From positions 1-64,000 of the IMG/VR virus record IMGVR_UViG_3300020171_000728: 64,000 bases of DNA; one strand, 5' to 3'. The first letter of the stretch is position 1; the number at the start of each line of letters is the position of its first letter. The stretch is from a virus. Shown here one piece after another: positions 953 to 64,000 of this stretch. The notes beneath the pieces were generated by a model, which saw only the letters and a list, made by a program, of their open reading frames with translations, did no database searches and was not told the DNA's origin. The translations under genes were made by a program, and so were the position numbers.

Positions 953-1016
953 TGGCGTAATATGGAGATACTTCATAAAATTGATTTATTTAAGACTCCA
1001 TGTGCTTGTTCCCCTT
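953..1016 (+). ncRNA. candidate small RNA unit C (Y-RNA-like)
   Basis: GGTGGCGTAATATGGAGATACTTCA...TTGTTCCCCTT, homologous to unit A; overlaps the spurious N-terminal extension of the 981..2513 ORF. Confidence 0.25.
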
Positions 1017-1025
1017 AAAAAAATA

Positions 1026-2513
1026 ATGACAAAATTCAATACTCAAAAAAATAAAATAAAAGAAGCATTAAAAAGACCACATGCAATTAAAAACCTTGCG
1101 GGTGGTATCGCTTATAAAATGGATGATGAATTACGACTTTATACTCGTGTTCTTACTTCATTAGTAGGAGAAGATAAATTCTATAAATCAGGAGATAAAA
1201 GTGATAAAGCTATTTTAGTAAATCTTAAAAAAGTTGACCCATTATTTGTTGCTGGATTAGCTGTTTATGCCAGAGAAAAGTTTTATTTAAGAAGTATCCC
1301 TGTTATGTTATTATCTGAATTATCTGAAATAAGTAAAGGGAGTAAATTGGTTGGAAAAGCTATTGAAAGAATAATTCAAAGACCAGATGAATTAACTGAA
1401 ATGTTGGCTTATAGAATTAACAAATATGGAAGAACAATTCCACATCAAATTAAAAAAGGGCTTGCAAGAGCTTTTGGAAAATTTAATGAATATCAATTAG
1501 CAAAATATAATCGAGCAGGAAGTGTTAAATTGAAAGATGTTTTATTTATGGTTCATCCAAAACCAAAAGATAAAGAACAAGATGAATTATGGAAAAGATT
1601 GATTAATGGTGAAATGAAAATTCCAGATACTTGGGAAACTAAAATTTCAGGTAAAGGTTCTACCAAAGAAAACTGGGAAGAAATTCTAAAATCTGGTAAT
1701 ATGGGGATTATGGCAGTAATTCGAAATTTAAGAAATTTTGTAGAAAAAGAAGTAGATTTAAAACCAGCTATTGAATTGTTAACCAACAAAGAAATAATTC
1801 ATAAATCAAAACAATTTCCATTTAGATTCTTTAATGCTTACATGGCTTTAGAAGAAATTAAAGCACCAGCCGAAATTTTAGATGCAGTAACAGATGCTAT
1901 GGAATTTTCAATAGATAATGTTCCTAAATTAGAAGGAAAAACTCTTATTGCAGTTGACGATAGCGGTAGTATGAGTTCTCTTTTATCTAGTAGGGGAACT
2001 GCTGAATATAGACATATTGCTGCTTTATTATGTGCTATCTATCATAAAAAGAATCCTTACGGAACTACAATTGGTAAATATTCAAATGATTGGGAAGTAG
2101 TAACATTAAATTCCAGAGATAGTGTTTTATCTAATATGAGAAAATTATTCGGACGTGGTGGTACTACTAACACTTATAAAGTATTCGATTGGGTGGGTCA
2201 TCAAAAAGAACAATTTGATAGAATTATTCTATTATCTGATATGCAATCTTGGGATGATGAGTATAGGGGGTGGGCTGGGATTGTGGCTGAGGGGAGTGTT
2301 GAGGGTTCTTATATTAAATCAAAACATAGAGGATATGTATATTCAATTGATTTAGCAGGATACGGAACTTCAGATATTGATACGAAAAATCCTAAAATTA
2401 TTAAATTAGCAGGTTGGAATGAAAAAGTATTTAACTATATTCAAAAGAACGAAGAAGATAAAGGTAAAGTAATTGAAGAAATTAGAAATATCGGAAAAGA
2501 TTTAATTGATTAA
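1026..2513 (+). CDS. rsr: Ro60/TROVE-like protein with C-terminal von Willebrand A domain (MIDAS DxSxS)
   Basis: About 495 aa; C-terminal IAVDDSGSMSS is a classic vWA MIDAS motif; size and vWA position match Ro60 (Rsr) orthologues; the adjacent tRNA-like small-RNA array matches the known rsr/Y-RNA arrangement. Start taken as ATG 1026, not the listed 981, which overlaps RNA unit C. Confidence 0.5.
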   Translation: MTKFNTQKNKIKEALKRPHAIKNLAGGIAYKMDDELRLYTRVLTSLVGEDKFYKSGDKSDKAILVNLKKVDPLFVAGLAVYAREKFYLRSIPVMLLSELSEISKGSKLVGKAIERIIQRPDELTEMLAYRINKYGRTIPHQIKKGLARAFGKFNEYQLAKYNRAGSVKLKDVLFMVHPKPKDKEQDELWKRLINGEMKIPDTWETKISGKGSTKENWEEILKSGNMGIMAVIRNLRNFVEKEVDLKPAIELLTNKEIIHKSKQFPFRFFNAYMALEEIKAPAEILDAVTDAMEFSIDNVPKLEGKTLIAVDDSGSMSSLLSSRGTAEYRHIAALLCAIYHKKNPYGTTIGKYSNDWEVVTLNSRDSVLSNMRKLFGRGGTTNTYKVFDWVGHQKEQFDRIILLSDMQSWDDEYRGWAGIVAEGSVEGSYIKSKHRGYVYSIDLAGYGTSDIDTKNPKIIKLAGWNEKVFNYIQKNEEDKGKVIEEIRNIGKDLID

Positions 2514-2518
2514 AATAA

Positions 2519-2588
2519 GCGGGTGGAAGGTATGGTAATCTTATCGGCCTCATAAACCGAATAAATGAGTTCAATTCTCATACCCGCA
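2519..2588 (+). tRNA. tRNA-like gene, anticodon CAT (Met/Ile2-type), non-canonical arms
   Basis: Hand fold: acceptor GCGGGTG/TACCCGC (7 bp, one G-U); T-arm TGAG-TTCAATT-CTCA; anticodon loop with U33, CAT at 34-36, A37; D-arm and the anticodon-stem closing pair are imperfect. Confidence 0.4.
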
Positions 2589-2598
2589 ACATAAAAAT

Positions 2599-4534: not shown

Positions 4535-5725
4535 AGAAAACGCAACGGTCTTTAGCTGTTGCTTTAGAATGGTATTGACTTTCTTTAATAGACACATTAA
4601 AATTATATCAATGAAAGTAATAGAATACAAGTTGTATCCCAACAAAGCCCAATTAAGTAGACTTGAAATCACACTTGAACAAGCTAGGCTTTTGTATAAT
4701 GAGGCTTTGGAACGAAGAATATCAAGCTGGAAAGAAAAACAAGAAAGTCTTAACTATTATGACCAAGCTAAATACTTCAAGGGTAAATATCCAATATCTG
4801 CAATGCTCACCCAATGCGTCTTAAAAAGATTGGACACTACATACCAAAGGTTTTTTAAGAAAAACAGCAACTTCCCAAGATTTAAGTCAAAAGATAGATT
4901 TCGTAGTATAGACATAAGACAGTGGGGATTAAATGCTTCTTTAAAAGAAGGAAAGCTAAGGTATGACAAAATGCTAATCAGAACGTCTAATCATAGGGAA
5001 TTAGAAGGAATACAAAAAACAGGAAGAGTTGTTAAAAGAGCTGATGGTTGGTATCTACAGGTAATTTGTGAAGTAGCCAGTTTACCTTTAAAAAAAGAAA
5101 TAAAAACAGCTATTGGATTAGATATGGGATTAAAATATTTGGTTGCTGATAGCGAAGGAAATACAACTAAAGCCCCTCAAATATTTAGAAAGACAGAAGC
5201 AAAGTTAGCTAAACAACAAAGAATAGTAAGCAGGCGGGTGAAAGGAAGTAGTGGAAGGAAAAAGGCAAAAGAAATTATTGCCAAAACACACCTTAAAATA
5301 TCAAGACAACGAAAAGATTTTTTGCATAAAGTTTCACATAAGTATGCCCAATATGATTTAGTTGCAGTAGAGAAATTAAATATTAGAGGAATGTTAAGAA
5401 ATCATCATTTAGCGAAAAGTATTTCTGACGCAAGTTGGAATATACTTCTACAGCTAATACGCTACAAAGCTGGGAACGCTGGTAGCTATTTTGTAGAAGT
5501 TAATCCAAGATATACAAGTCAGAAATGCAACGGTTGTGGGGCGATTGTTCAAAAATCGCTTAGTATCAGGACTCATATTTGTCCTGAATGTTCTCTGATA
5601 ATAGACAGAGACTACAACGCTTCGTTAAACATTTTAAGGTCAGGTATTGACCTTGGTAGAGAGATGGGATTACCCATTTCGTTGAAACCAGAAGCCACTA
5701 GGTCTTTAGCCTAGTGGTAGTTCAC
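4535..5725 (+). mobile_element. IS200/IS605-family (IS1341-like) element carrying tnpB only
   Basis: TnpB ORF flanked by subterminal hairpins with an identical TCTTTAG loop: GCAACGG-TCTTTAG-CTGTTGC (4542-4562) and CCACTAGG-TCTTTAG-CCTAGTGG (5695-5717); no tnpA. Confidence 0.5.
4611..5714 (+). CDS. tnpB: TnpB (OrfB) RNA-guided nuclease-like transposon protein
   Basis: MKVIEYKLYPNKAQ N-terminus; RuvC-like core (IGLDMGLK); C-terminal zinc finger CNGCG...CPECS; 367 aa from ATG 4611. Confidence 0.75.
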   Translation: MKVIEYKLYPNKAQLSRLEITLEQARLLYNEALERRISSWKEKQESLNYYDQAKYFKGKYPISAMLTQCVLKRLDTTYQRFFKKNSNFPRFKSKDRFRSIDIRQWGLNASLKEGKLRYDKMLIRTSNHRELEGIQKTGRVVKRADGWYLQVICEVASLPLKKEIKTAIGLDMGLKYLVADSEGNTTKAPQIFRKTEAKLAKQQRIVSRRVKGSSGRKKAKEIIAKTHLKISRQRKDFLHKVSHKYAQYDLVAVEKLNIRGMLRNHHLAKSISDASWNILLQLIRYKAGNAGSYFVEVNPRYTSQKCNGCGAIVQKSLSIRTHICPECSLIIDRDYNASLNILRSGIDLGREMGLPISLKPEATRSLA

Positions 5726-6324: not shown

Positions 6325-7073
6325 AAAAGAAAACATCTAACATAGATAGTTTTGTCAATAAAATTATTAACGGAAATTGTTTAAAATTATTAGCAAAAAT
6401 ACCAGATAATTCAATAGATTTGTGCTTAACTGACCCACCGTATGATATTGATTTTTCAAAATATGAAACATTATCAGATAAAGGTGGAAGAAAATTTCAT
6501 CATACAGAAAAATTAAAATGGAATACTGTAGATTTGAAATCATTATCAAAAATACTATTTAAAGAATTGGATAGAATTATTAAACACAATGGTTCAATTA
6601 TAATCTTCGGTCCCCAAGAATGGGGATATTACTACTATAAACCAGCTATTGATAATAACTTTGATTTAAAATGTCAATTAGTGTGGGTTAAAAAAAATCC
6701 TATACCACAATTCAGAAAGAAAAATTATCGTTCAACACATGAAAATATTGTATGGTTTGCTAGATATGAAAAAAATAAATGTCCTTTTACATTTAATTTT
6801 ATTAACCAACAAGAAATGAAAAATGTTTTTACAACACCAATATTACAAGGGGAAGAAAGGTGGGATCATCCAACACAAAAACCATTATCACTAATTGAAA
6901 AGCTAATTACAATCCATAGTAATGAAAATGATATTATTTTTGACCCATTCTCTGGAAGTGGGACAACCGCAGTAGCAAGTCAAAATCTTAAACGTAAATT
7001 TATTGGGATAGAAATAGATTCAAAATATTTTAAAATGTCAAATGATAGACTCGCACAAAAACCAATGCTATAG
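6321..7073 (+). CDS. DNA methyltransferase (N6-adenine or N4-cytosine, beta-class motif order)
   Basis: Motif IV LTDPPYD near the N-terminus and motif I FDPFSGSGTT near the C-terminus. Confidence 0.8.
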   Translation: MKKKTSNIDSFVNKIINGNCLKLLAKIPDNSIDLCLTDPPYDIDFSKYETLSDKGGRKFHHTEKLKWNTVDLKSLSKILFKELDRIIKHNGSIIIFGPQEWGYYYYKPAIDNNFDLKCQLVWVKKNPIPQFRKKNYRSTHENIVWFARYEKNKCPFTFNFINQQEMKNVFTTPILQGEERWDHPTQKPLSLIEKLITIHSNENDIIFDPFSGSGTTAVASQNLKRKFIGIEIDSKYFKMSNDRLAQKPML

Positions 7074-57244: not shown

Positions 57245-57345
57245 ATATTTAATTTACTTGACTTTACTTAATTTGACTTGACAAGTAAATATTCAATGAT
57301 ATTATAACATTAATAACCAACAATAATCAATTAAATAAATTAAAT

Positions 57346-57540
57346 ATGTCATTAATCGAATGGAAAGCATATAGGAACATTAGAATCAAAGAGGATAAAG
57401 ATTCAATCAAATCAGTATCACAAAAACTTGGCATAGACATAATGCTCGCAAGAGAAATTCTTAATGGAACATACGACCATCAAACAAGAGAATGGGAAAG
57501 AATGGGAAAAAACAAATTAATAAAAGAAAAATTAATATAA
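57346..57540 (+). CDS. hypothetical small protein
   Basis: 64-aa ORF downstream of a TTGACA-N17-TATTAT promoter-like element. Confidence 0.3.
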   Translation: MSLIEWKAYRNIRIKEDKDSIKSVSQKLGIDIMLAREILNGTYDHQTREWERMGKNKLIKEKLI

Positions 57541-57946: not shown

Positions 57947-58000
57947 TATTATAAAAGAAAGCAACAAAGTCGCTTTTGGCGTATTTGAGAAAATTTTTTC

Positions 58001-58136
58001 AGTAGAAAAATGACTTTGTCATTTTAGTAGAAAAATGACTTTGTCATTTTAGTAGAAAAATGACTTTGTCATTTTAGTAGAAAAATGACTTTGTCATTTT
58101 AGTAGAAAAATGACTTTGTCATTTTAGTAGAAAAAC
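58001..58136 (+). repeat. 5.5 tandem copies of a 25-bp iteron AGTAGAAAAATGACTTTGTCATTTT, each with an AAATGAC/GTCATTT inverted repeat
   Basis: Perfect direct repeats read directly in the sequence. Confidence 0.9.
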
Positions 58137-58476
58137 GGGATAAGGTTGAAAAACCATATTCTGTTTTTTTTGGCGTTTTTGTGAATATTCTCTTAGTGTG
58201 GAGGGAACTTGACAAAAAGGCAACTTCGTTGTTGAAAATAAGCGAGTTTGTGGAAATTTTCTCAGTGGGGAATGGGGGTAGAGGGGGAATTTTTTTTCTT
58301 TCTCTTTTTTTTTCTGATGTCGTTTGATAACAATAACAATCTCCGCAAGGTTTCACGCGGAACATAAAAAAACGCTTTTAGTTTCACCGATGTTTCACTA
58401 TAAAAAAAAAATATGTCAAGCGTTATCGGTTCGGGCTTGTTTAATATCCTATTGACAAAAAGATTTTTTCGTGTCT

Positions 58477-58485
58477 GTGGATAAC
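58477..58485 (-). promoter_or_regulatory. DnaA-box consensus (TTATCCACA)
   Basis: TGTGGATAA on the plus strand is the reverse complement of the 9-mer consensus. Confidence 0.4.
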
Positions 58486-58680
58486 TTCGTTTGACAACGC
58501 CAGTGCAAATGTTAAAATGTAAGCGGTAGGGATCGGGTCTGATATACTCGCTAACTATAGTACCTTGACAAAACAAAAAAAACAAGACGAAGCGATAAGT
58601 GATCAGAAAGTTAAAAAGCGAAGCAAGCGGACGGCAAGCGATCAGAAGTTTTTGATCTCGCTTGTTTCGTATAAAGTTTT

Positions 58681-58893
58681 ATGGATAAAAAAAAACACGG
58701 CACAAAAAAACAAAGGATCAGGTACTTAGAGTTAGAGAGAAAAGCAAGACAAGCGTACGCGGCAAGCATAATCAAAGGGACGGGGCTTGCAGATATAGCT
58801 TGTTTCCTTACTCATGAAGAAGAGACGGAGATCTTCAAGTTAGACGCGGCGATCTTTGGAGATCTGTTGCAATGGGAAAAGGGGGGGTTATGA
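58681..58893 (+). CDS. hypothetical protein in GC-richer segment
   Basis: 70-aa ORF. Confidence 0.25.
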   Translation: MDKKKHGTKKQRIRYLELERKARQAYAASIIKGTGLADIACFLTHEEETEIFKLDAAIFGDLLQWEKGGL

Positions 58894-59118
58894 TCTGGAG
58901 TTATATGGATCACAAGAGAAAAGAAAAGAGGCGGCGGCTGTTGCGGTATATCATAGCGGCGGGGGTTATGTTTTTGGCGGTGGAGGTGTTTTGTATGCTG
59001 TTGCGGTGGTCTGTTTGGCAGTATAACGCGATCATTAGATAGTTTTGATCGCTTGCCGTTTCGTCTTGTTTGTTATCTTATGCCGTCAGTCCGCTGATCC
59101 GCTGTTATCAGTTAAATA

Positions 59119-59544
59119 ATGGCTGTTATTATTATGAATAAAAAGACAAAAGAAGTCAAGACGGTTTCAAAAGTCAAGGCGGTAGAAGTCAGGGATTTAT
59201 CCCTTGCGGGGTTGCTCCGATCACACATAGGCGATTTCCAAAAAGAGCGAAAGGCATCGGCTTGCTTATACAACGGGAGCAGGAAGGCGCCAAGATGGGC
59301 GGGGTCTATCACGGGCGGGGGGGTTTTTACTCTTTCCCACTATAGTACCCCGATCCTAAAGATCGGGCTGTCCGATCAAAAAGCGGAGTTAGTTAAGTTG
59401 CCGGAGGCACGGCTTGCGAAAGGATATAGCAACGGGGATCTCCGCGGGATAAACACAACGCTGGAAGTTTTGAAGCCAAAGAACGCCGCGAAGGCGATCA
59501 AGCGGCAAGGGTACACCTCGTTCGTTTCAGTAAGTAGTTTATAA
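59119..59544 (+). CDS. hypothetical protein in GC-richer segment
   Basis: 141-aa ORF. Confidence 0.3.
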   Translation: MAVIIMNKKTKEVKTVSKVKAVEVRDLSLAGLLRSHIGDFQKERKASACLYNGSRKAPRWAGSITGGGVFTLSHYSTPILKIGLSDQKAELVKLPEARLAKGYSNGDLRGINTTLEVLKPKNAAKAIKRQGYTSFVSVSSL

Positions 59545-59679
59545 AAGTTTTGATCGTTATCTTTTATGATAACGGCGGCGGGTTGGCGGGATAAGATAAC
59601 AGAAGAGGGCAGAAGCCAAAAGCGATTATTATATGATCGCTTTTTAGGATTGGGGAAGTTTATGCAATCGCTGATTTTT

Positions 59680-59737
59680 GGTTTCACGGGGTTTCACGGT
59701 TTCACGGGGTTTCACGGTTTCACGAGGTTTCACGGGG
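59680..59737 (+). repeat. six tandem copies of GGTTTCACG(G) (9/10-nt units)
   Basis: Direct repeats read directly, followed by GGGGGCAGGGGGACAGG. Confidence 0.85.
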
Positions 59738-59980
59738 GCAGGGGGACAGGATTGCAAAACGCTAATTACTAATTACAATTAAGAATTAAAATTAGGAATT
59801 GAAATCAGTAATTAGAGGTGCAGAATTAAGATTTGTAATTAAGTAATTATGATTAAGAATTAAATTTTGCAATTGAAATGATAGATTAACAATTACTTGT
59901 TATCTGCCATTTACATTGCAAGAGGAAGCAATTAGTGCGATAAAAGCAATTGAATGCGTAAGCACATACAATTGAATGCA

Positions 59981-60021
59981 AAAGTTATCCACAGGCAAAA
60001 ATCGGTTTTTCGTGTTATAAT
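59981..60021 (+). promoter_or_regulatory. conserved 45-nt promoter-like element containing TTATCCACA (copy 1)
   Basis: AAAGTTATCCACAGGCAAAAATCGGTTTTTCGTGTTATAAT, followed by SD AAGGAGGTG and ATG 60047. Confidence 0.5.
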
Positions 60022-60046
60022 AAGAAAAAGAAAGGAGGTGAACATT

Positions 60047-60238
60047 ATGAGAAAACAATTGAATACATTAAATACAAAAGAAAACTTTATCAATGTATTA
60101 GTAGATTGTGATGGATATAGTGAAGAAGATGCAATTGACTTCGCTGAAGAATATCACAATGACCTTGAGAAGTGGATAATAGATCGTGGTGGCGATGAAA
60201 GAGCAATTGAAGAATGTAGAAAATTTTGCGGGATTTGA
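60047..60238 (+). CDS. hypothetical small protein
   Basis: Start at the internal Met of the listed ORF, 7 nt after SD AAGGAGGTG. Confidence 0.4.
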   Translation: MRKQLNTLNTKENFINVLVDCDGYSEEDAIDFAEEYHNDLEKWIIDRGGDERAIEECRKFCGI

Positions 60239-60415
60239 CTTCTGACATTGCATCTAAGCAATTGGATGCAATAATGAGAAGTTAATTGAAACAAAAATAT
60301 TCGGAATATTTCGTTTCTAACAGCACATTGACAATTGAATACTAATCACCTCATCCGATCAGTTGCCAGATCAATTGTTATTAATTTAATTGGCGGCTGA
60401 AGAAAGGACAATTAT

Positions 60416-60706
60416 ATGTTTGATGAAGTTTTCAATGACATGGCGAAGTCCGCTGCAATGGAGATTGGATTGACAGAGGACGAAGCCGAGCGAGAAGTTG
60501 ACGAATTCAATTGTACTCATGATAGTGGTAGGTTTTGCGATGATTGCGGAGTGCAATTGAATGACGGAGTTAATTGTGCGGATTTTCTTTCGGATTACTG
60601 CAATGAGTGTTGGGATAAATTTCTTAAGGAGTATTTTCCCAATGTTAAAAAGGAATTAAAGCAGGAGACATTGAATAAGGAAATGAATGAAGAATTGGCG
60701 AAATAA
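60416..60706 (+). CDS. hypothetical acidic Cys-containing protein
   Basis: 96-aa ORF. Confidence 0.35.
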   Translation: MFDEVFNDMAKSAAMEIGLTEDEAEREVDEFNCTHDSGRFCDDCGVQLNDGVNCADFLSDYCNECWDKFLKEYFPNVKKELKQETLNKEMNEELAK

Positions 60707-61157
60707 ATAACAATAGCAATTGATCAGATGAGGGGATTATGACGGATTGCCTTGTTTAGCTGATTGTTGAGCCAATTGTTGACATATTCAATTGCGAATA
60801 TGTAATTGAATATGGGAGAATAAGTGCACCAATGTGCACACCGACAATTAGAGAAAGCAATTAAATGAAAAAAACAAAAATTAAAAAGAAAAAACCAATT
60901 AATGAATTATATCATAGAATTGGCAGGTATTTAGAAAAAAAGCAATTGGGATTCTGTTTTCTTCCCAATGGAGAATTTGTAAGTAGAGAGCAATGCGAAA
61001 AATACGGATACAAATTCAATTAGAAAACGACTTCGTTGTTTTCATAAAATATTTCTCGACAATTGGCTTAACAAGGTAATCAATTGAAAATCAAGCAAGC
61101 AATTGCAGATTTTAAATGCGTGTGATTGCGAGTGCACAATTGGTGCACACGATGAGA

Positions 61158-61209
61158 AGCAATTAGATAAAGCAATTAAGTGCAGCAATTAAGAGTAGCA
61201 ATTATACTC
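61158..61209 (+). repeat. four tandem 13-bp units each starting AGCAATTA
   Basis: AGCAATTAGATAA AGCAATTAAGTGC AGCAATTAAGAGT AGCAATTATACTC. Confidence 0.8.
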
Positions 61210-61738
61210 TTGGATTTTCTAATATCCATCCGACAACGAAAGAAGCAATGTCTTTTACTTCGACATGATTCAATCTAAACCATTCGCCTCTTACTCTTTG
61301 ATTTTTGTAATTGTTGTGCAAATAGCGTTCTAATGATTGTGGGTCAGGTAACATTGTGCTAAATATCAATCGTATTCTAAATGGATTTCCTGTTTGCATT
61401 GCGGAAATACGGCTTCTTACATCTGTAGCAAAACCAATTTTATAATAATCACTTTTACATTGAATAATATAAATAAAATCTCTTTTTAATTCAGAATGTC
61501 CAATTTTCAATTGATTTCTTCTATAAGCAATTCGGCAAGCATCATTGCAGAATAAGCGGGCTTTCTTTCCAATTATTTGTTTTATTTCTTTATTACATTG
61601 TAAACATTTACTTACGGTTAAATTGCTTTTCTTTGGAACGGTAAGACGATTGTATTTGATACGGCAATTAGTTGAACAAAACTTTGATGTTGCCCTAATT
61701 GGTTCGTATTCTTTCCCACATTGTAAACATTTATTCAT
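61202..61738 (-). CDS. GIY-YIG (T5orf172/MUG113-type) nuclease domain protein with two N-terminal zinc ribbons
   Basis: CLQCGK...CSTNC and CLQCNK...CNDAC; then FIYIIQCKSDYYKIGFATDVRSRISAMQTGNP (GIY-YIG T5orf172 signature). Confidence 0.55.
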   Translation of the reverse strand: MNKCLQCGKEYEPIRATSKFCSTNCRIKYNRLTVPKKSNLTVSKCLQCNKEIKQIIGKKARLFCNDACRIAYRRNQLKIGHSELKRDFIYIIQCKSDYYKIGFATDVRSRISAMQTGNPFRIRLIFSTMLPDPQSLERYLHNNYKNQRVRGEWFRLNHVEVKDIASFVVGWILENPRV

Positions 61739-61858
61739 TGATTTTCACCACCTTTCTTTTATAAATATTACCAAATGGATGAGCAGATGTCAAGGGTTTT
61801 TCAATTGATTTACATTGGTTTCGTGAAACATAGAGCCAAATAATTCAATTGGTGGCAA

Positions 61859-61898
61859 AAGTTATCCACTTTAGATTTTTCGGTTTTTATGATAGAAT
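61859..61898 (+). promoter_or_regulatory. diverged copy 2 of the 45-nt promoter-like element (TTATCCACT, then TTATACACA)
   Basis: AAAGTTATCCACTTTAGATTTTTCGGTTTTTATGATAGAAT...GGTTATACACAGG. Confidence 0.4.
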
Positions 61899-62206
61899 AA
61901 GGTTATACACAGGAAGCAAAAAATGAGCAGATAGAAGCACATTGACAACAAAACAAATAAATAATTGGCAGGTAGGCAATCGGCATGTAATAGTGTGTAA
62001 TTGCCATCGGGGGAGTATAGAGATTACAGTAATCAATTGGCTTGGTTAAGCCAATCGTTTAAATCCGTACTCTAAAATCAATTAAAAATCCCACCAAAAA
62101 GGGTGAATTGCGAGTGAATTGTGAGTTTTTCGCAATTATCGGGGCAAATCAATGGCATAGTTAAGCCATTGGTATCCCAAATCGTGGGGGTTTATCAAGC
62201 CAACAA

Positions 62207-62809
62207 TTGAATGGCATAGATAAGCCAATTGAAAAGTTGCTAATCTGTAGAAAAACTATGTTAATTAAAATTTTTAAGGAGTTCGGGCGACAATCGGAGC
62301 TGAAGTCATTGTGTAGGAGTGAGGTTAAAGATTTTCTCAATGACAATCGGTTACAGGATGGCACAGTTAAGCGAGTAATTGAATTGCTTGGGTCTAATCT
62401 TCCGATGATTACCATAAAAAAGAAGCCATACAGAGCCAAAAACGGGGATTTGATGGCGTTTCTGGCGGGATATGGGGCGGGGGGTTGTGAGGGCGACAAA
62501 CTGGGGGGGACGGGGGCAGAGGGCGACAAGATGGAGGGCGGAAGCACAAGCGGAAGCGACAAGATAGCCAAAGCAAGAGCCAAAGCAAGGGAGCTGGAAA
62601 GGGACGGGGAAGATGAAGAAGGAGTTATCATTCAATGTAAGTTCTTACGGAAGAGTTACATTGGGGAGGGGATGATTATTAAAATGGGCGGCAAAATCAA
62701 GGAATTGAAAGGGGAAGGAAGAAGTTTTGAACAGACATTGCTTGCGTTAAAGCGGGGTTGTAGCATTACTATACGATATGTTGATGATTACAATTGGGGG
62801 GTTTTATAA
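62207..62809 (+). CDS. hypothetical protein with Gly/Asp-rich central tract
   Basis: 200-aa ORF; central purine-rich DNA encodes GAGGCEGDKLGGTGAEGDKMEGG. Confidence 0.3.
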   Translation: MNGIDKPIEKLLICRKTMLIKIFKEFGRQSELKSLCRSEVKDFLNDNRLQDGTVKRVIELLGSNLPMITIKKKPYRAKNGDLMAFLAGYGAGGCEGDKLGGTGAEGDKMEGGSTSGSDKIAKARAKARELERDGEDEEGVIIQCKFLRKSYIGEGMIIKMGGKIKELKGEGRSFEQTLLALKRGCSITIRYVDDYNWGVL

Positions 62810-62995
62810 GATGGCGGGCAATTATAATGATTATTACCTGCCAATTATTTATTTGTAAATCTGTGGGGGCTAATTGATATTATTCACTTTTAGATTTTAA
62901 TTGAATGTGGGTGGATATTTTGTCAATTGACCAAATGGGGGAATTGTGGTGTTTGTGTTTTTTGTGTAATTAGTTCTTAATACCTAGTAAAATCA

Positions 62996-63253
62996 ATGAA
63001 ATACGATATTAAAGTAAACCAATTGGATACTCATATCAGAGTTTACACATTGGAAGATGGTAAATTGCCAGAGAAAATAAAGGTTGATTTATATTTGTCT
63101 AATAATCAATGGAGAGTTAATTGGTCGGCTTGTGGAGACCAAGACATTGAATTTGCCGATGAATTTATGGCAGTAATGAAGAAAGCAATTAAGATAATGA
63201 TAGAATTGAATTTAGAGTTATGGGATAAAGCAATCAAAGATGCGGGGTTATAA
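62996..63253 (+). CDS. hypothetical small protein
   Basis: 85-aa ORF. Confidence 0.3.
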   Translation: MKYDIKVNQLDTHIRVYTLEDGKLPEKIKVDLYLSNNQWRVNWSACGDQDIEFADEFMAVMKKAIKIMIELNLELWDKAIKDAGL

Positions 63254-63299
63254 TTAGTTTATGCATTGCCAATCATAAAATTATACTAGGTTAATTGAT

Positions 63300-63515
63300 A
63301 TGGTTGGCAAACATAAGGGAATTATTGATGGGCGGCAATCGGATGATAATCGGGTGATAATTGGGCGGCAATTAGTTCCTTGCAAAAAGCAAACAACGGA
63401 AGGAAGTATGTCGAAGCATTTTCAATGGTGGAAATGTGGGGATGACTGTCCCCGACCTTCTCAATGCATTAAATGCTATGCGATGCAATGTTGTTTGCTT
63501 TTTGGGGGGAGTTAA
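63300..63515 (+). CDS. small Cys-rich protein
   Basis: 71 aa with CGDDCPRPSQCIKCYAMQCC. Confidence 0.25.
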   Translation: MVGKHKGIIDGRQSDDNRVIIGRQLVPCKKQTTEGSMSKHFQWWKCGDDCPRPSQCIKCYAMQCCLLFGGS

Positions 63516-63779
63516 TTGGGCGGGCGAGTGCACATTGGTGCACATCAAATTAAGAGTTTAATTAGTGAGTTAGGCACTTTTACAATTATGAAAAAATATA
63601 ATTTACTAATTGCAATTTATGAAAAAGTATTTTGCAATGTATGTAATTCAGAAAAAACTAAAAAAACATATAAACCATTGCAAAGTAGTAATGGCGAAAT
63701 ATACAAATTAACAAAAGAACAATGTTTAAAATACATTGATACTTACTTAATAAACGATTATAAAATTGTAGAAATATAA
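63516..63779 (+). CDS. hypothetical small protein with CxxC
   Basis: 87-aa ORF. Confidence 0.3.
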   Translation: MGGRVHIGAHQIKSLISELGTFTIMKKYNLLIAIYEKVFCNVCNSEKTKKTYKPLQSSNGEIYKLTKEQCLKYIDTYLINDYKIVEI

Positions 63780-63862
63780 ATCAATTACCATTTAGAATAG
63801 ATAATTGTATATCCTAACAATACATTTATCTATTCAACATTGGTGCACATCAATTGATACAA

Positions 63863-63903
63863 AAAGTTATCCACAGGAGAAAATCAGTTTTCTATGATAT
63901 AAT
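63863..63903 (+). promoter_or_regulatory. copy 3 of the 45-nt promoter-like element containing TTATCCACA
   Basis: AAAAGTTATCCACAGGAGAAAATCAGTTTTCTATGATATAAT, followed by SD AAGAGGAGGTG and ATG 63943. Confidence 0.5.
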
Positions 63904-63942
63904 AAAAGAGTAAAAAACAAATAAAAAGAGGAGGTGAAAAAT

Positions 63943-64000
63943 ATGAAAAAAGCAATTAAAAATGAAAAGGGATTTTTCAAAAACTATAAACAAACTAAAA
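63943..64000 (+). CDS. hypothetical protein, 5' partial at window end
   Basis: ATG 7 nt after a strong SD; MKKAIKNEKGFFKNYKQTK..., truncated by the window edge. Confidence 0.35.
   Translation, partial: MKKAIKNEKGFFKNYKQTK

What the first reader, a model, noticed from the sequence alone, without database searches (positions are those of the whole stretch)
59981..60021. 45-nt promoter-like element containing the DnaA-box 9-mer, repeated three times ahead of small ORFs with strong Shine-Dalgarno sites
Seen: AAAGTTATCCACAGG(C/A)(A/G)AAAATC(G/A)GTTTT...TG(T/A)TATAAT at 59981-60021 and 63863-63903, and a diverged copy at 61859-61898 that adds a second TTATACACA. The two intact copies are each followed about 10-25 nt later by AAGGAGGTG and an ATG. 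Inference: a family of co-regulated early promoters whose -35 region is overlapped by a DnaA-box-like site. This would allow repression or activation by DnaA or by a phage regulator with the same specificity.
Basis: partly seen in the sequence, partly recalled or inferred. Interest (0 to 1): 0.55.

Follow-up and report, generated by a model that had tools for sequence, protein, structure and literature searches.

The report
DnaA-box promoters in a CPR phage
Three conserved promoters in a phage's small-gene region carry a perfect DnaA-binding site at a fixed distance from the -10 box; the same composite is a promoter type of Patescibacteria (CPR) bacteria, which points to the phage's host and suggests that the replication initiator DnaA takes part in transcription there.

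Summary
Three co-oriented copies (59981, 61859, 63863) share one architecture: AAAGTTATCCACAGG, exactly 17 nt, then TGnTATAAT, with no TTGACA at -35. W1 and W3 are followed by a Shine-Dalgarno site and an ATG. A fourth, inverted box (58473-58486) lies 6 nt upstream of a canonical promoter.

A relative whose proteins are 51-59% identical keeps the box and -10 at the same syntenic positions, while the flanks have diverged.

The main result is that the composite is not phage-specific. The exact pattern occurs in at least 119 metagenome contigs and in 47 stretches of reference genomes, 40 of them named Patescibacteria/CPR, with unrelated flanks. It is mostly intergenic, and A is enriched 7 nt after the TATAAT. 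The downstream genes are diverse: pilins, a membrane-protein gene next to 23S rRNA, and LexA-methylase fusions.

Box-to-(-10) spacing peaks at 17 nt and at 26-28 nt (the latter with TTGACA in between), one helical turn apart.

The 12-mer equals the E. coli oriC R1 DnaA box with its flanks. The window encodes no DnaA domain IV homologue.

Best reading: host-type extended -10 promoters whose upstream box recruits host DnaA in a face-of-helix-dependent, probably activating, way. The binding protein and the sign of the effect are untested.

The parts
59981..60021 (+). W1 composite promoter. AAA + box GTTATCCACAGG (59984-59995), 17-nt spacer CAAAAATCGGTTTTTCG, extended -10 TGTTATAAT (60013-60021). 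Predicted start at A 60028.
   Evidence: The ortholog in L122 at 8310 has 94% identity over AAAA+box and 100% over the -10, against 33-50% in the upstream flank.
60032..60238 (+). SD AAGGAGGTG (60032-60040) and a 63-aa ORF (ATG 60047, stop 60236-60238) driven by W1. No family match.
   Evidence: Ortholog at L121 4973-5158.
61858..61898 (+). W2 composite promoter, decayed copy. Box GTTATCCACTTT (61861-61872; DnaA core TTATCCACT, 8 of 9), 17-nt spacer, TGATAGAAT (61890-61898).
   Evidence: The orthologs in L122 (9595) and in the metagenome relatives L132, L151, L153, L166 and L217 have the perfect box.
61902..61913 (+). Second box, GTTATACACAGG, lying over the predicted W2 start site. Its core TTATACACA fits TTATNCACA.
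   Evidence: L122 has GTTATAACACAGG here (one extra base), so it is not conserved as a DnaA box.
61914..62809 (+). W2 transcription unit: about 350 nt of untranslated leader with three hairpin repeats (62030-62053, 62145-62168, 62204-62227), then a 183-aa ORF (62258-62809).
   Evidence: family D8; 59% identity to the L121 ortholog; no Pfam match.
63863..63903 (+). W3 composite promoter. AAA + box GTTATCCACAGG (63866-63877), spacer AGAAAATCAGTTTTCTA, TGATATAAT (63895-63903).
   Evidence: Ortholog at L122 11293.
63928..64000 (+). SD GAGGAGGTG (63928-63936) and ATG 63943 of a 51-aa ORF that runs off the window end. An ArdA anti-restriction gene follows on contig L374.
58473..58518 (+). Inverted box (TGTGGATAA at 58476-58484; reads AGTTATCCACAG on the minus strand), 6 nt, then the canonical promoter TTGACA (58491-58496), 16 nt, TAAAAT with TG (58510-58518).
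   Evidence: The same arrangement is found in L121 (CCTGTGGATAAC, 25 nt, TGCTATAAT).
59969..59974 (.). CAATTG 9 nt upstream of the W1 15-mer. The same is seen at 61846-61851 (W2) and 63851-63856 (W3). It is part of the 55-nt repeat family and of the CAATTG-rich domain.

Best explanation
W1, W2 and W3 are host-type sigma-A promoters of the extended -10 kind (TRTGnTATAAT). They lack a -35 hexamer. Instead they carry a consensus high-affinity DnaA box (A)GTTATCCACAGG at -44 to -33, always 17 nt from the TG.

The same composite is a promoter class of Patescibacteria (CPR) bacteria, so the window is most likely a CPR phage that copies a strong host promoter type for its small-gene (presumed early) region.

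Proposed mechanism (inferred, not shown): host DnaA sits on the single R1-type box and contacts RNA polymerase from one face of the helix. This would work class-II-like at -39, or one turn further upstream at -49 when a TTGACA hexamer is present, and would help recruit polymerase. Phage gene expression would then start from host components alone and would be coupled to the host's DnaA pool.
For: Promoter function:
- Extended -10; SD and ATG 10-24 nt after the -10 of W1 and W3.
- Box and -10 are 94-100% conserved against a relative whose proteins are 51-59% identical, while flanks are 17-50%.
- All 7 forward copies in the two phages have exactly the 17-nt spacing.
- Among 135 unique unrelated copies, positions that were not selected show A 82% just 5' of the box, T 71% at -17 (the TRTG motif) and A 77% at the seventh base after TATAAT, the expected start site.
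- Only 25% of copies lie inside open frames of 100 codons or more, against 76% of random 38-mers from the same loci.
- 118 of 135 copies have a co-oriented ATG ORF starting within 250 nt.

Host-type element:
Of these, 40 are named Patescibacteria lineages, 3 are unclassified and 4 belong to other phyla.
- The copies are chromosomal. Several lie between tRNA genes and 23S rRNA.
- The phage clamp's nearest named homologues are all Patescibacteria.

Helical phasing:
- The spacing histogram in IMG/VR has peaks at 17 nt (7 sites in 5 contigs) and at 26-28 nt (18 sites, with TTGACA 7 nt after the box). Other spacings have 0-4 sites.
- A reversed-sequence control box gives 7 contigs over all spacings, against 52 for the real box.
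- CPR loci use TTGACA at 16-17 nt in promoters without the box, so the box is not the lineage's -35 element.

DnaA identity:
- The 12-mer equals E. coli oriC R1 with its flanks (CTTGTTATCCACAGGGC).
- R1/R4-type boxes in their oriC context bind DnaA with a KD of about 1 nM (PMC5835720).
- A CPR DnaA (L133) keeps the PRQ and RDHTTxIHA DNA-contact motifs, and 1-mismatch boxes lie around its dnaA gene.
- Two of the three one-mismatch promoter boxes found without selection vary at the tolerated fifth position, TTAT[T/G]CACA.
- No DnaA domain IV homologue is encoded in the window.
Against: - No binding or transcription data exist for any of these sites.
- Extended -10 promoters can fire without an activator, so the box could be neutral or repressive.
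- Each promoter has a single box, whereas E. coli DnaA prefers pairs of closely spaced sites (title of PMC11317965, listed).
- The 17-nt spacing in the metagenome and genome sets was imposed by the search pattern. Independent support for the spacing rests on the IMG/VR histogram (modest counts) and on the two phages.
- In held CPR loci, other TTATCCACA sites show no peak at this spacing. Box promoters are a small minority of extended -10 sites there.
- The hosts of the IMG/VR contigs in the 26-28 nt class are unknown.
- 'Early' timing is inferred only from gene content (small ORFs, ArdA downstream) and from position.
Confidence: 0.48

Rival explanations
1. The promoters are the same and DnaA binds the box, but it acts negatively. 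DnaA bound next to or over the sigma region-4 position throttles otherwise strong extended -10 promoters, so expression rises when free DnaA is low. The boxes might alternatively serve mainly to titrate DnaA.
For: Repression is the classical DnaA mode at dnaA and nrd promoters (my knowledge). W2 has a second TTATNCACA box over the predicted start site. In other IMG/VR phages the inverted box lies inside the promoter spacer, 5 nt from the -10, which is a typical repressor position. Extended -10 promoters need no activator.
Against: Repressor sites seldom show two sharp positions one helical turn apart. In the 26-28 nt class the box lies wholly upstream of an intact -35 hexamer, where a monomer would not occlude polymerase. 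The element precedes genes expected to be highly expressed, such as pilins and an rRNA-operon gene. Three to five boxes are too few to titrate DnaA.
Confidence: 0.2
2. The box is recognised by something other than DnaA, and the identity to the DnaA box is coincidental or secondary. Candidates are the RNA polymerase alpha C-terminal domain (an UP-like element with proximal and distal subsites) or a CPR-specific transcription factor.
For: The two positions, with 16-mer centres near -40 and -50, are close to the proximal and distal UP subsites at -42 and -52 (my knowledge). The DNA upstream of the box is A-rich. The element is associated with rRNA-operon and pilin genes, which suggests a strength element.
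Against: 12 of 12 bases match oriC R1. CPR DnaA keeps the base-contact motifs and uses the same box family at its own gene, so DnaA would be expected to bind anyway. UP elements are A/T-rich and degenerate, whereas this box is G/C-containing and nearly invariant. Only a small share of extended -10 sites carry it.
Confidence: 0.2
3. A phage-encoded regulator with DnaA-like specificity controls the three promoters as a private early or middle regulon.
For: The phage copies share extra features that host copies lack: an A5-N4-T5 spacer motif and an upstream CAATTG. A 64-aa protein that looks like an HTH protein (57346-57540; my reading of the sequence, no Pfam match) is encoded just after the canonical promoter at 57278.
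Against: The same box with the same spacing occurs at chromosomal genes of many CPR lineages. No DnaA domain IV homologue is found in the window or in L122. No small ORF near the elements has a family match.
Confidence: 0.06
4. The elements are not promoters. The boxes would be DnaA-dependent replication or DnaA-loading sites, and the TATAAT would be incidental AT-rich sequence.
For: DnaA-box clusters are common at phage and plasmid origins. The nearby region 57970-59750 holds iteron-like repeats.
Against: The boxes are single and about 2 kb apart. Each lies at an identical distance from TGnTATAAT and upstream of a co-oriented gene. In the unbiased 15-mer set, which is dominated by clustered DnaA boxes, 0 of 130 sites have TGnTAnAAT at this spacing. 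The TSS-position A signal adds to this.
Confidence: 0.04

Closest known systems
DnaA-regulated promoters (E. coli dnaA and nrdAB, B. subtilis dnaA and sda, Caulobacter gcrA and ftsZ, phage lambda pR)
   Same: A TTATNCACA-type box lies next to a sigma-70-type promoter. The replication initiator acts as a transcription factor, and a phage promoter (lambda pR) responds to host DnaA. These points are from my knowledge; the DnaA review PMC5835720 covers box affinities.
   Different: Here there is a single perfect R1-type box in one orientation at one of two fixed positions (-39 or -49). It stands in place of the -35 hexamer, it is repeated as a class across a whole phylum and its phages, and the downstream genes are unrelated to replication. 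The known cases have variable positions, often several boxes, and are mostly repressive.
Class II and class I activator-dependent promoters (CRP/FNR type)
   Same: The activator site is centred about -40, the -35 hexamer is missing, and an alternative position lies one or more helical turns upstream when a -35 hexamer is present.
   Different: The site is asymmetric and monomer-sized rather than a dyad. The upstream position is -49 rather than -61.5. No activator has been identified.
Extended -10 (TRTGn) promoters of Gram-positive bacteria and reduced genomes
   Same: TGn and an upstream T (TRTG) precede TATAAT, and the -35 is weak or absent.
   Different: These carry an added invariant 12-13-nt upstream element.
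Phage T4 middle promoters (MotA box replacing the -35)
   Same: In a phage promoter class, a non-sigma motif replaces the -35 element and is combined with a good -10.
   Different: The MotA box is centred at -30 and is read by phage-encoded MotA together with AsiA. Here the motif is at -39, is shared with host genomes, and no phage factor is evident.
UP element of rRNA promoters
   Same: An upstream element lies between -33 and -58 at strong promoters, including an rRNA-operon context, with two positions about 10 bp apart.
   Different: UP elements are A/T-rich and degenerate. This element is a defined G/C-containing 12-mer.

Membership tests
sigma-70/sigma-A extended -10 promoter | TGn immediately 5' of a TATAAT-like hexamer | tested here: met
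   TGTTATAAT, TGATAGAAT and TGATATAAT. The TG is conserved in all L122 copies.
sigma-70/sigma-A extended -10 promoter | Purine start site about 7 nt after the -10 | tested here: met
   A at 60028 (W1), A at 61905 (W2), G at 63910 (W3). A is 77% at this unselected position in 135 unrelated copies. This is a statistical signal only.
sigma-70/sigma-A extended -10 promoter | Mapped transcript 5' end | not testable with these tools
   No transcript data were available.
canonical sigma-70 promoter | TTGACA-like hexamer 16-18 nt upstream of the -10 | tested here: not met
   Positions -35..-30 read AGGCAA, TTTAGA and AGGAGA. Promoters without the box in the same CPR loci do show TTGACA at 16-17 nt.
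DnaA box (R1/R4 type) | 9-mer TTATCCACA | tested here: met
   Exact in W1 and W3; 8 of 9 in W2; exact in the inverted copy.
DnaA box (R1/R4 type) | Flanking bases as in oriC high-affinity boxes | tested here: met
   GTTATCCACAGG is identical to the E. coli oriC R1 context in the published oligonucleotide.
DnaA box (R1/R4 type) | Host DnaA with conserved domain IV contact residues | tested here: met
   The CPR DnaA in L133 has KPRQ and GGRDHTTAIHA motifs and is 40-43% identical to E. coli and B. subtilis domain IV. This is one CPR example, not the phage's actual host.
DnaA box (R1/R4 type) | Bound by DnaA | not testable with these tools
   Needs EMSA, footprinting or ChIP.
DnaA-regulated promoter or origin | Two or more closely spaced boxes | tested here: not met
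   Single boxes at W1 and W3. Only W2 has a second box, and it is not conserved.
Class II activator-dependent promoter | Site centred about -41.5 that replaces the -35, plus phase-locked alternative positions | tested here: met
   The centre is at -39. The second class is 10 bp upstream and has TTGACA.
Class II activator-dependent promoter | Activator-polymerase contact and activator dependence | not testable with these tools
   Needs in vitro transcription.
UP element | A/T-rich, degenerate sequence at -40 to -60 | tested here: not met
   The box contains five G/C positions and is invariant. Only the 3-4 bases 5' of it are A-rich.
T4-type middle promoter | Phage-encoded activator and a motif at -30 | tested here: not met
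   The motif is at -39 and is shared with host chromosomes. No candidate factor was found.

The most novel reading that the evidence does not exclude
Patescibacteria (CPR) have a phylum-wide promoter class in which a single consensus DnaA box, phase-locked at -39 (no -35 hexamer) or -49 (with TTGACA), recruits DnaA as a general transcription activator. It would drive strongly expressed genes (pilins, an rRNA-operon membrane-protein gene) and mobile-element genes, and CPR phages would have adopted it for their early genes. In these reduced genomes the replication initiator would then double as a major promoter-recognition factor.
Probability: 0.35. Interest if true: 0.8.

Novelty: new variant of a known kind. 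Interest (0 to 1): 0.62.

Why it matters
- Host assignment. The element gives an uncultivated 64-kb-plus phage a host, Patescibacteria, from two independent lines: the promoter class and the affinities of the clamp protein.
- A testable promoter architecture. Almost nothing is known about transcription signals in this phylum. The architecture can be tested in the few cultivable Saccharibacteria and in metatranscriptomes.
- A possible new role for DnaA.
- Practical uses. The 38-nt composite is a candidate strong promoter for CPR genetics, and it is a sequence signature for recognising CPR phages and mobile elements in metagenomes.

Tried and rejected
- Megablast of 59000-64000 against GenBank phages found no match.
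- The 15-mer alone in IMG/VR hit at least 120 contigs. These are mostly ordinary DnaA-box clusters, and none has the -10 at 17 nt, so they are uninformative as relatives.
- A protein-based search for relatives of the 183-aa ORF in IMG/VR returned only the contig already found.
- A phage DnaA-like regulator was sought by tblastn with E. coli and B. subtilis domain IV. Nothing was found in the window (best E-value 3).
- Pfam on 10 small ORFs around the elements gave nothing above threshold.
- Rfam on the whole window found only tRNA-Met.
- I considered that the box is the lineage's own -35 element. This is rejected because CPR loci show TTGACA at 16-17 nt, and the 26-28 nt class carries both the box and TTGACA.
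- I considered that AAAGGTCGA downstream of host copies is an unusual Shine-Dalgarno site. This is rejected because its distance to the ATG varies, and the one 16S 3' end that I read is not complementary to it.
- Look-ups for the 70-kb parent contig returned only short ENA and Logan fragments.

Full report
**1. Observation**

- W1: AAAGTTATCCACAGG (59981-59995), 17 nt, TGTTATAAT (60013-60021).
- W3: the same 15-mer (63863-63877), 17 nt, TGATATAAT (63895-63903).
- W2: AAAGTTATCCACTTT (61858-61872), 17 nt, TGATAGAAT (61890-61898), followed by GTTATACACAGG (61902-61913).

The 29-nt core pattern occurs twice, against 0 expected in shuffles. The repeat finder groups the three copies as one 55-nt family that also includes a CAATTG upstream. 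The 9-mer with one mismatch is not enriched on its own (31 observed, 24.7 expected).

A scan allowing 3 mismatches in the box finds no further forward copies. A fourth, inverted box (58473-58486) lies 6 nt upstream of the -35 of a canonical promoter, TTGACA-16-TGTTAAAAT.

W1 is followed by AAGGAGGTG and an ATG at 60047 (63-aa ORF). W3 is followed by GAGGAGGTG and an ATG at 63943. W2 is followed by about 350 nt of leader before a 183-aa ORF.

**2. Geometry**

With the -10 hexamer at -12..-7, the TG lies at -15/-14 and the 12-mer GTTATCCACAGG spans -44..-33 (the 9-mer spans -43..-35). The -35..-30 positions read AGGCAA, TTTAGA and AGGAGA, so there is no -35 hexamer. The box lies mostly upstream of the -35 position rather than on it.

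**3. Context**

The window is phage-like.
- Portal, protease/capsid and tail genes are on the minus strand. A sliding clamp, a transposase and tRNA-Met are on the plus strand.
- The elements lie in a plus-strand block of small ORFs without family matches (57.3-64 kb).
- A short contig that overlaps the window end shows that W3 drives a 51-aa ORF followed by an ArdA anti-restriction gene. This fits, but does not prove, early expression.

**4. Conservation in a relative**

A degenerate pattern search in IMG/VR found one syntenic relative, read as L121 and, in plus orientation, as L122. Its orthologous proteins are 51-59% identical.

It carries the composite at the orthologous positions of W1, W2 and W3. 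It also has a fourth copy further downstream, one copy with 27-nt spacing and TTGACA, and the inverted copy upstream of the orthologous canonical promoter. All forward copies of the 17-nt kind have exactly 17 nt.

For the W1/La and W3/Lc pairs, ungapped identity is 94-100% over AAAA+box, 89-100% over the extended -10 and 76-82% over the spacer. It is 19-50% upstream and 50-63% downstream. W2 is the decayed member: its orthologs in L122 and in several metagenome relatives have the perfect box.

**5. The element is not phage-specific**

The exact pattern GTTATCCACAGG-N17-TGnTATAAT occurs in the following sets:
- 5 IMG/VR contigs;
- 47 stretches of GTDB representative genomes. Of these, 40 are titled Patescibacteria/CPR (Saccharibacteria, Parcubacteria, Moran-, Nealson-, Azam-, Yanofsky-, Staskawicz-, Jorgensen- and Magasanik-bacteria, Minisyncoccales), 3 are unclassified and 4 belong to other phyla.

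The flanks are unrelated.

The copies behave like promoters.
- 25% lie inside open frames of 100 codons or more, against 76% of random 38-mers from the same loci.
- 118 of 135 unique copies have a co-oriented ATG ORF within 250 nt.
- Positions that were not selected are informative: A 82% immediately 5' of the box, T 71% two bases before the TG (TRTG), and A 77% at the seventh base after TATAAT.

The downstream genes fall into 58 clusters. They include:
- 22 copies of a membrane protein of about 226 aa with the MS-channel TM-helix domain;
- 7 pilins;
- LexA-DNA methylase fusions;
- stand-alone methylases;
- Bro-N proteins;
- a DeoR-type regulator.

In seven of the 19 loci scanned with Rfam, the membrane-protein gene is followed directly by the 23S rRNA gene. 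In several loci tRNA genes lie just upstream of the promoter. These are therefore chromosomal host promoters.

The phage clamp's nearest named homologues (45-46% identity) are all Patescibacteria. This is a second line of evidence for a CPR host.

**6. Spacing**

Because the collection searches fixed the spacing, I ran a variable-gap scan of IMG/VR. The distance from the box to TGnTATAAT has two peaks.
- 17 nt: 7 sites in 5 contigs.
- 26-28 nt: 4, 8 and 6 sites. In many of these a TTGACA-like hexamer lies 7 nt after the box and 17 nt before the TATAAT.

All other spacings have 0-4 sites. The two classes differ by one helical turn.

A reversed-sequence control box gives 7 contigs in total, against 52 for the real box. 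The inverted box shows a different pattern: a peak at 5 nt (box inside the spacer) and a broad hump at 20-25 nt.

In the unbiased 15-mer set, which is dominated by ordinary DnaA-box clusters, 0 of 130 sites have the -10 at 17 nt.

In CPR loci, extended -10 sites without the box show TTGACA at 16-17 nt (15 and 14 sites, against about 3 at other spacings). The lineage therefore uses the normal -35 element, and the box is an additional element.

Box promoters are a minority. Among 370 other extended -10 sites, only a handful carry near-consensus boxes at these offsets.

**7. Is it a DnaA box?**

- The 12-mer is identical to the E. coli oriC R1 box with its flanks (CTTGTTATCCACAGGGC in the published oligonucleotide).
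- R1/R4-type boxes in oriC context bind DnaA with a KD of about 1 nM, and box quality depends on the fifth base and the neighbouring bases (PMC5835720).
- A CPR dnaA gene held in L133 keeps the PRQ and RDHTTxIHA motifs. One-mismatch boxes lie upstream of it and in the dnaA-dnaN spacer.
- Of three one-mismatch promoter boxes found without selection at the 17-nt offset, two vary at the tolerated fifth position. The sample is small.
- The window encodes no domain IV homologue.

It would therefore be surprising if host DnaA did not bind these sites. Whether it is the functional reader is not shown.

**8. Mechanism**

Shown:
- a composite element with fixed geometry;
- conservation between the two phages;
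- distribution across a host phylum;
- promoter-like statistics;
- two helical-phase classes.

Inferred:
- DnaA occupancy;
- a positive, polymerase-contacting role (class-II-like at -39, one turn upstream at -49);
- early timing.

I put this at about 0.5. The rivals are:
- DnaA as a repressor or gate (0.2);
- a different reader, such as alpha-CTD or a CPR factor (0.2);
- a phage regulator (0.06);
- not a promoter (0.04).

The phage copies carry extra shared features that host copies lack: an A5-N4-T5 spacer motif and an upstream CAATTG. These may add a phage-specific layer of control.

**9. Comparison with known systems, and novelty**

DnaA as a transcription factor is known, and so are extended -10 promoters. 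I did not find this fixed composite described, nor its spread across Patescibacteria and their phages. Four full-text searches found only a mention of DnaA-box-like sequences at a Peregrinibacteria origin.

I rate it a new variant of a known kind. The idea of a phage-private regulon does not.

Noticed in passing
window 59870-63856; L122 8000-17000: CAATTG is massively enriched in the small-ORF region that starts at W1: 29 sites against 1.3 expected from base composition, and only 17 sites in the other 60 kb. CAATTA is also enriched. The same domain-specific enrichment starts at the W1 ortholog in the relative (14 sites in one kb). The sites lie inside and between ORFs. Their function is unknown.
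   Followed up: partly
window 60824-60839, 61132-61148, 63528-63543, half-site at 63843; L122 8280, 11250, 16860: GTGCAC-N4-5-GTGCAC palindromes recur between genes, in several cases (63843; L122 8280 and 11250) about 15-30 nt upstream of a box promoter. They have no T-run, so they are not classical terminators. They could be operator or RNA-processing sites.
   Followed up: partly
window 57972-58160: Six tandem 25-bp repeats (TTTTAGTAGAAAAATGACTTTGTCA), each containing the palindrome TGACTTTGTCA. They look like iterons. L121 has no such array at the equivalent place.
   Followed up: no
window 58350-58398 and 59681-59733; L121 about 6740-6810 and 5480-5530: GTTTCAC motifs (three copies, then six copies in an 8/10-bp tandem array GGTTTCACGG) bracket a higher-GC cassette of three ORFs that is driven by the promoter at 58491. 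The bracketing is conserved in the relative. It may be a binding array for a phage protein (replication or partition?).
   Followed up: partly
window 58569-58608/59043-59082, 59071-59094/59578-59601, 61953-61974/62835-62856: Long-range inverted repeats flank single ORFs or ORF pairs; the last pair is 22 nt and perfect. L121 has complementary segments at the equivalent places with different sequence. This suggests transcript-level stems (processing sites) rather than mobile-element ends.
   Followed up: no
window 61914-62257: The W2 transcript would begin with about 350 nt of non-coding leader that holds three related hairpins (62030-62053, 62145-62168, 62204-62227; e.g. ATGGCATAGTTAAGCCAT). 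They are conserved in L121. There is no Rfam match.
   Followed up: no
window 61202-61738 (minus strand): A T5orf172/MUG113-type gene, of homing-endonuclease kind, lies on the opposite strand between the W1 unit and W2. L121 has a different, co-oriented ORF there. W2, next to this insertion, is the only decayed box.
   Followed up: partly
L374 3863-4144 (about 280-560 nt beyond the window end): An ArdA anti-restriction gene is the second gene of the W3 transcription unit.
   Followed up: partly
CPR loci, e.g. L165, L190, L201, L174, L163, L124: A 9-mer, AAAGGTCGA (A 88-93% at each of the three positions before GGTCG; A 76% after it), lies 7-75 nt downstream of the -10 in 41 of the box-promoter copies, about 27 of them within 30 nt against roughly 1-2 expected. 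It is in the 5' UTRs of membrane-protein, pilin and surface-protein genes. Its distance to the ATG varies, so it is not a Shine-Dalgarno site. Unexplained.
   Followed up: partly
L163, L264, L174, L201, L255, L237, L280: In CPR chromosomes a gene for a protein of about 226 aa with the MS-channel TM-helix domain, with its own box promoter, sits inside the rRNA locus: after the tRNA genes that follow 16S rRNA (seen in L163) and directly before 23S rRNA.
   Followed up: partly
L163 3440-3460: The 16S rRNA 3' end of this CPR bacterium reads GGATCACTACATTT instead of GGATCACCTCCTTT, so it lacks the canonical anti-Shine-Dalgarno CCTCC. The phage in the window uses strong GGAGG sites, so its host should differ in this respect.
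   Followed up: no
L251, L162, L291: Box promoters drive fusion proteins of about 500 aa that combine a LexA DNA-binding domain, an S24 peptidase domain and an N6/N4 DNA methylase domain.
   Followed up: no
window 981-2590 and 4569-5714: A homologue of PHROG family phrog_850 (annotated RNA-binding protein), immediately followed by tRNA-Met, and a transposase (phrog_506) lie in the plus-strand block at the left end of the window.
   Followed up: no
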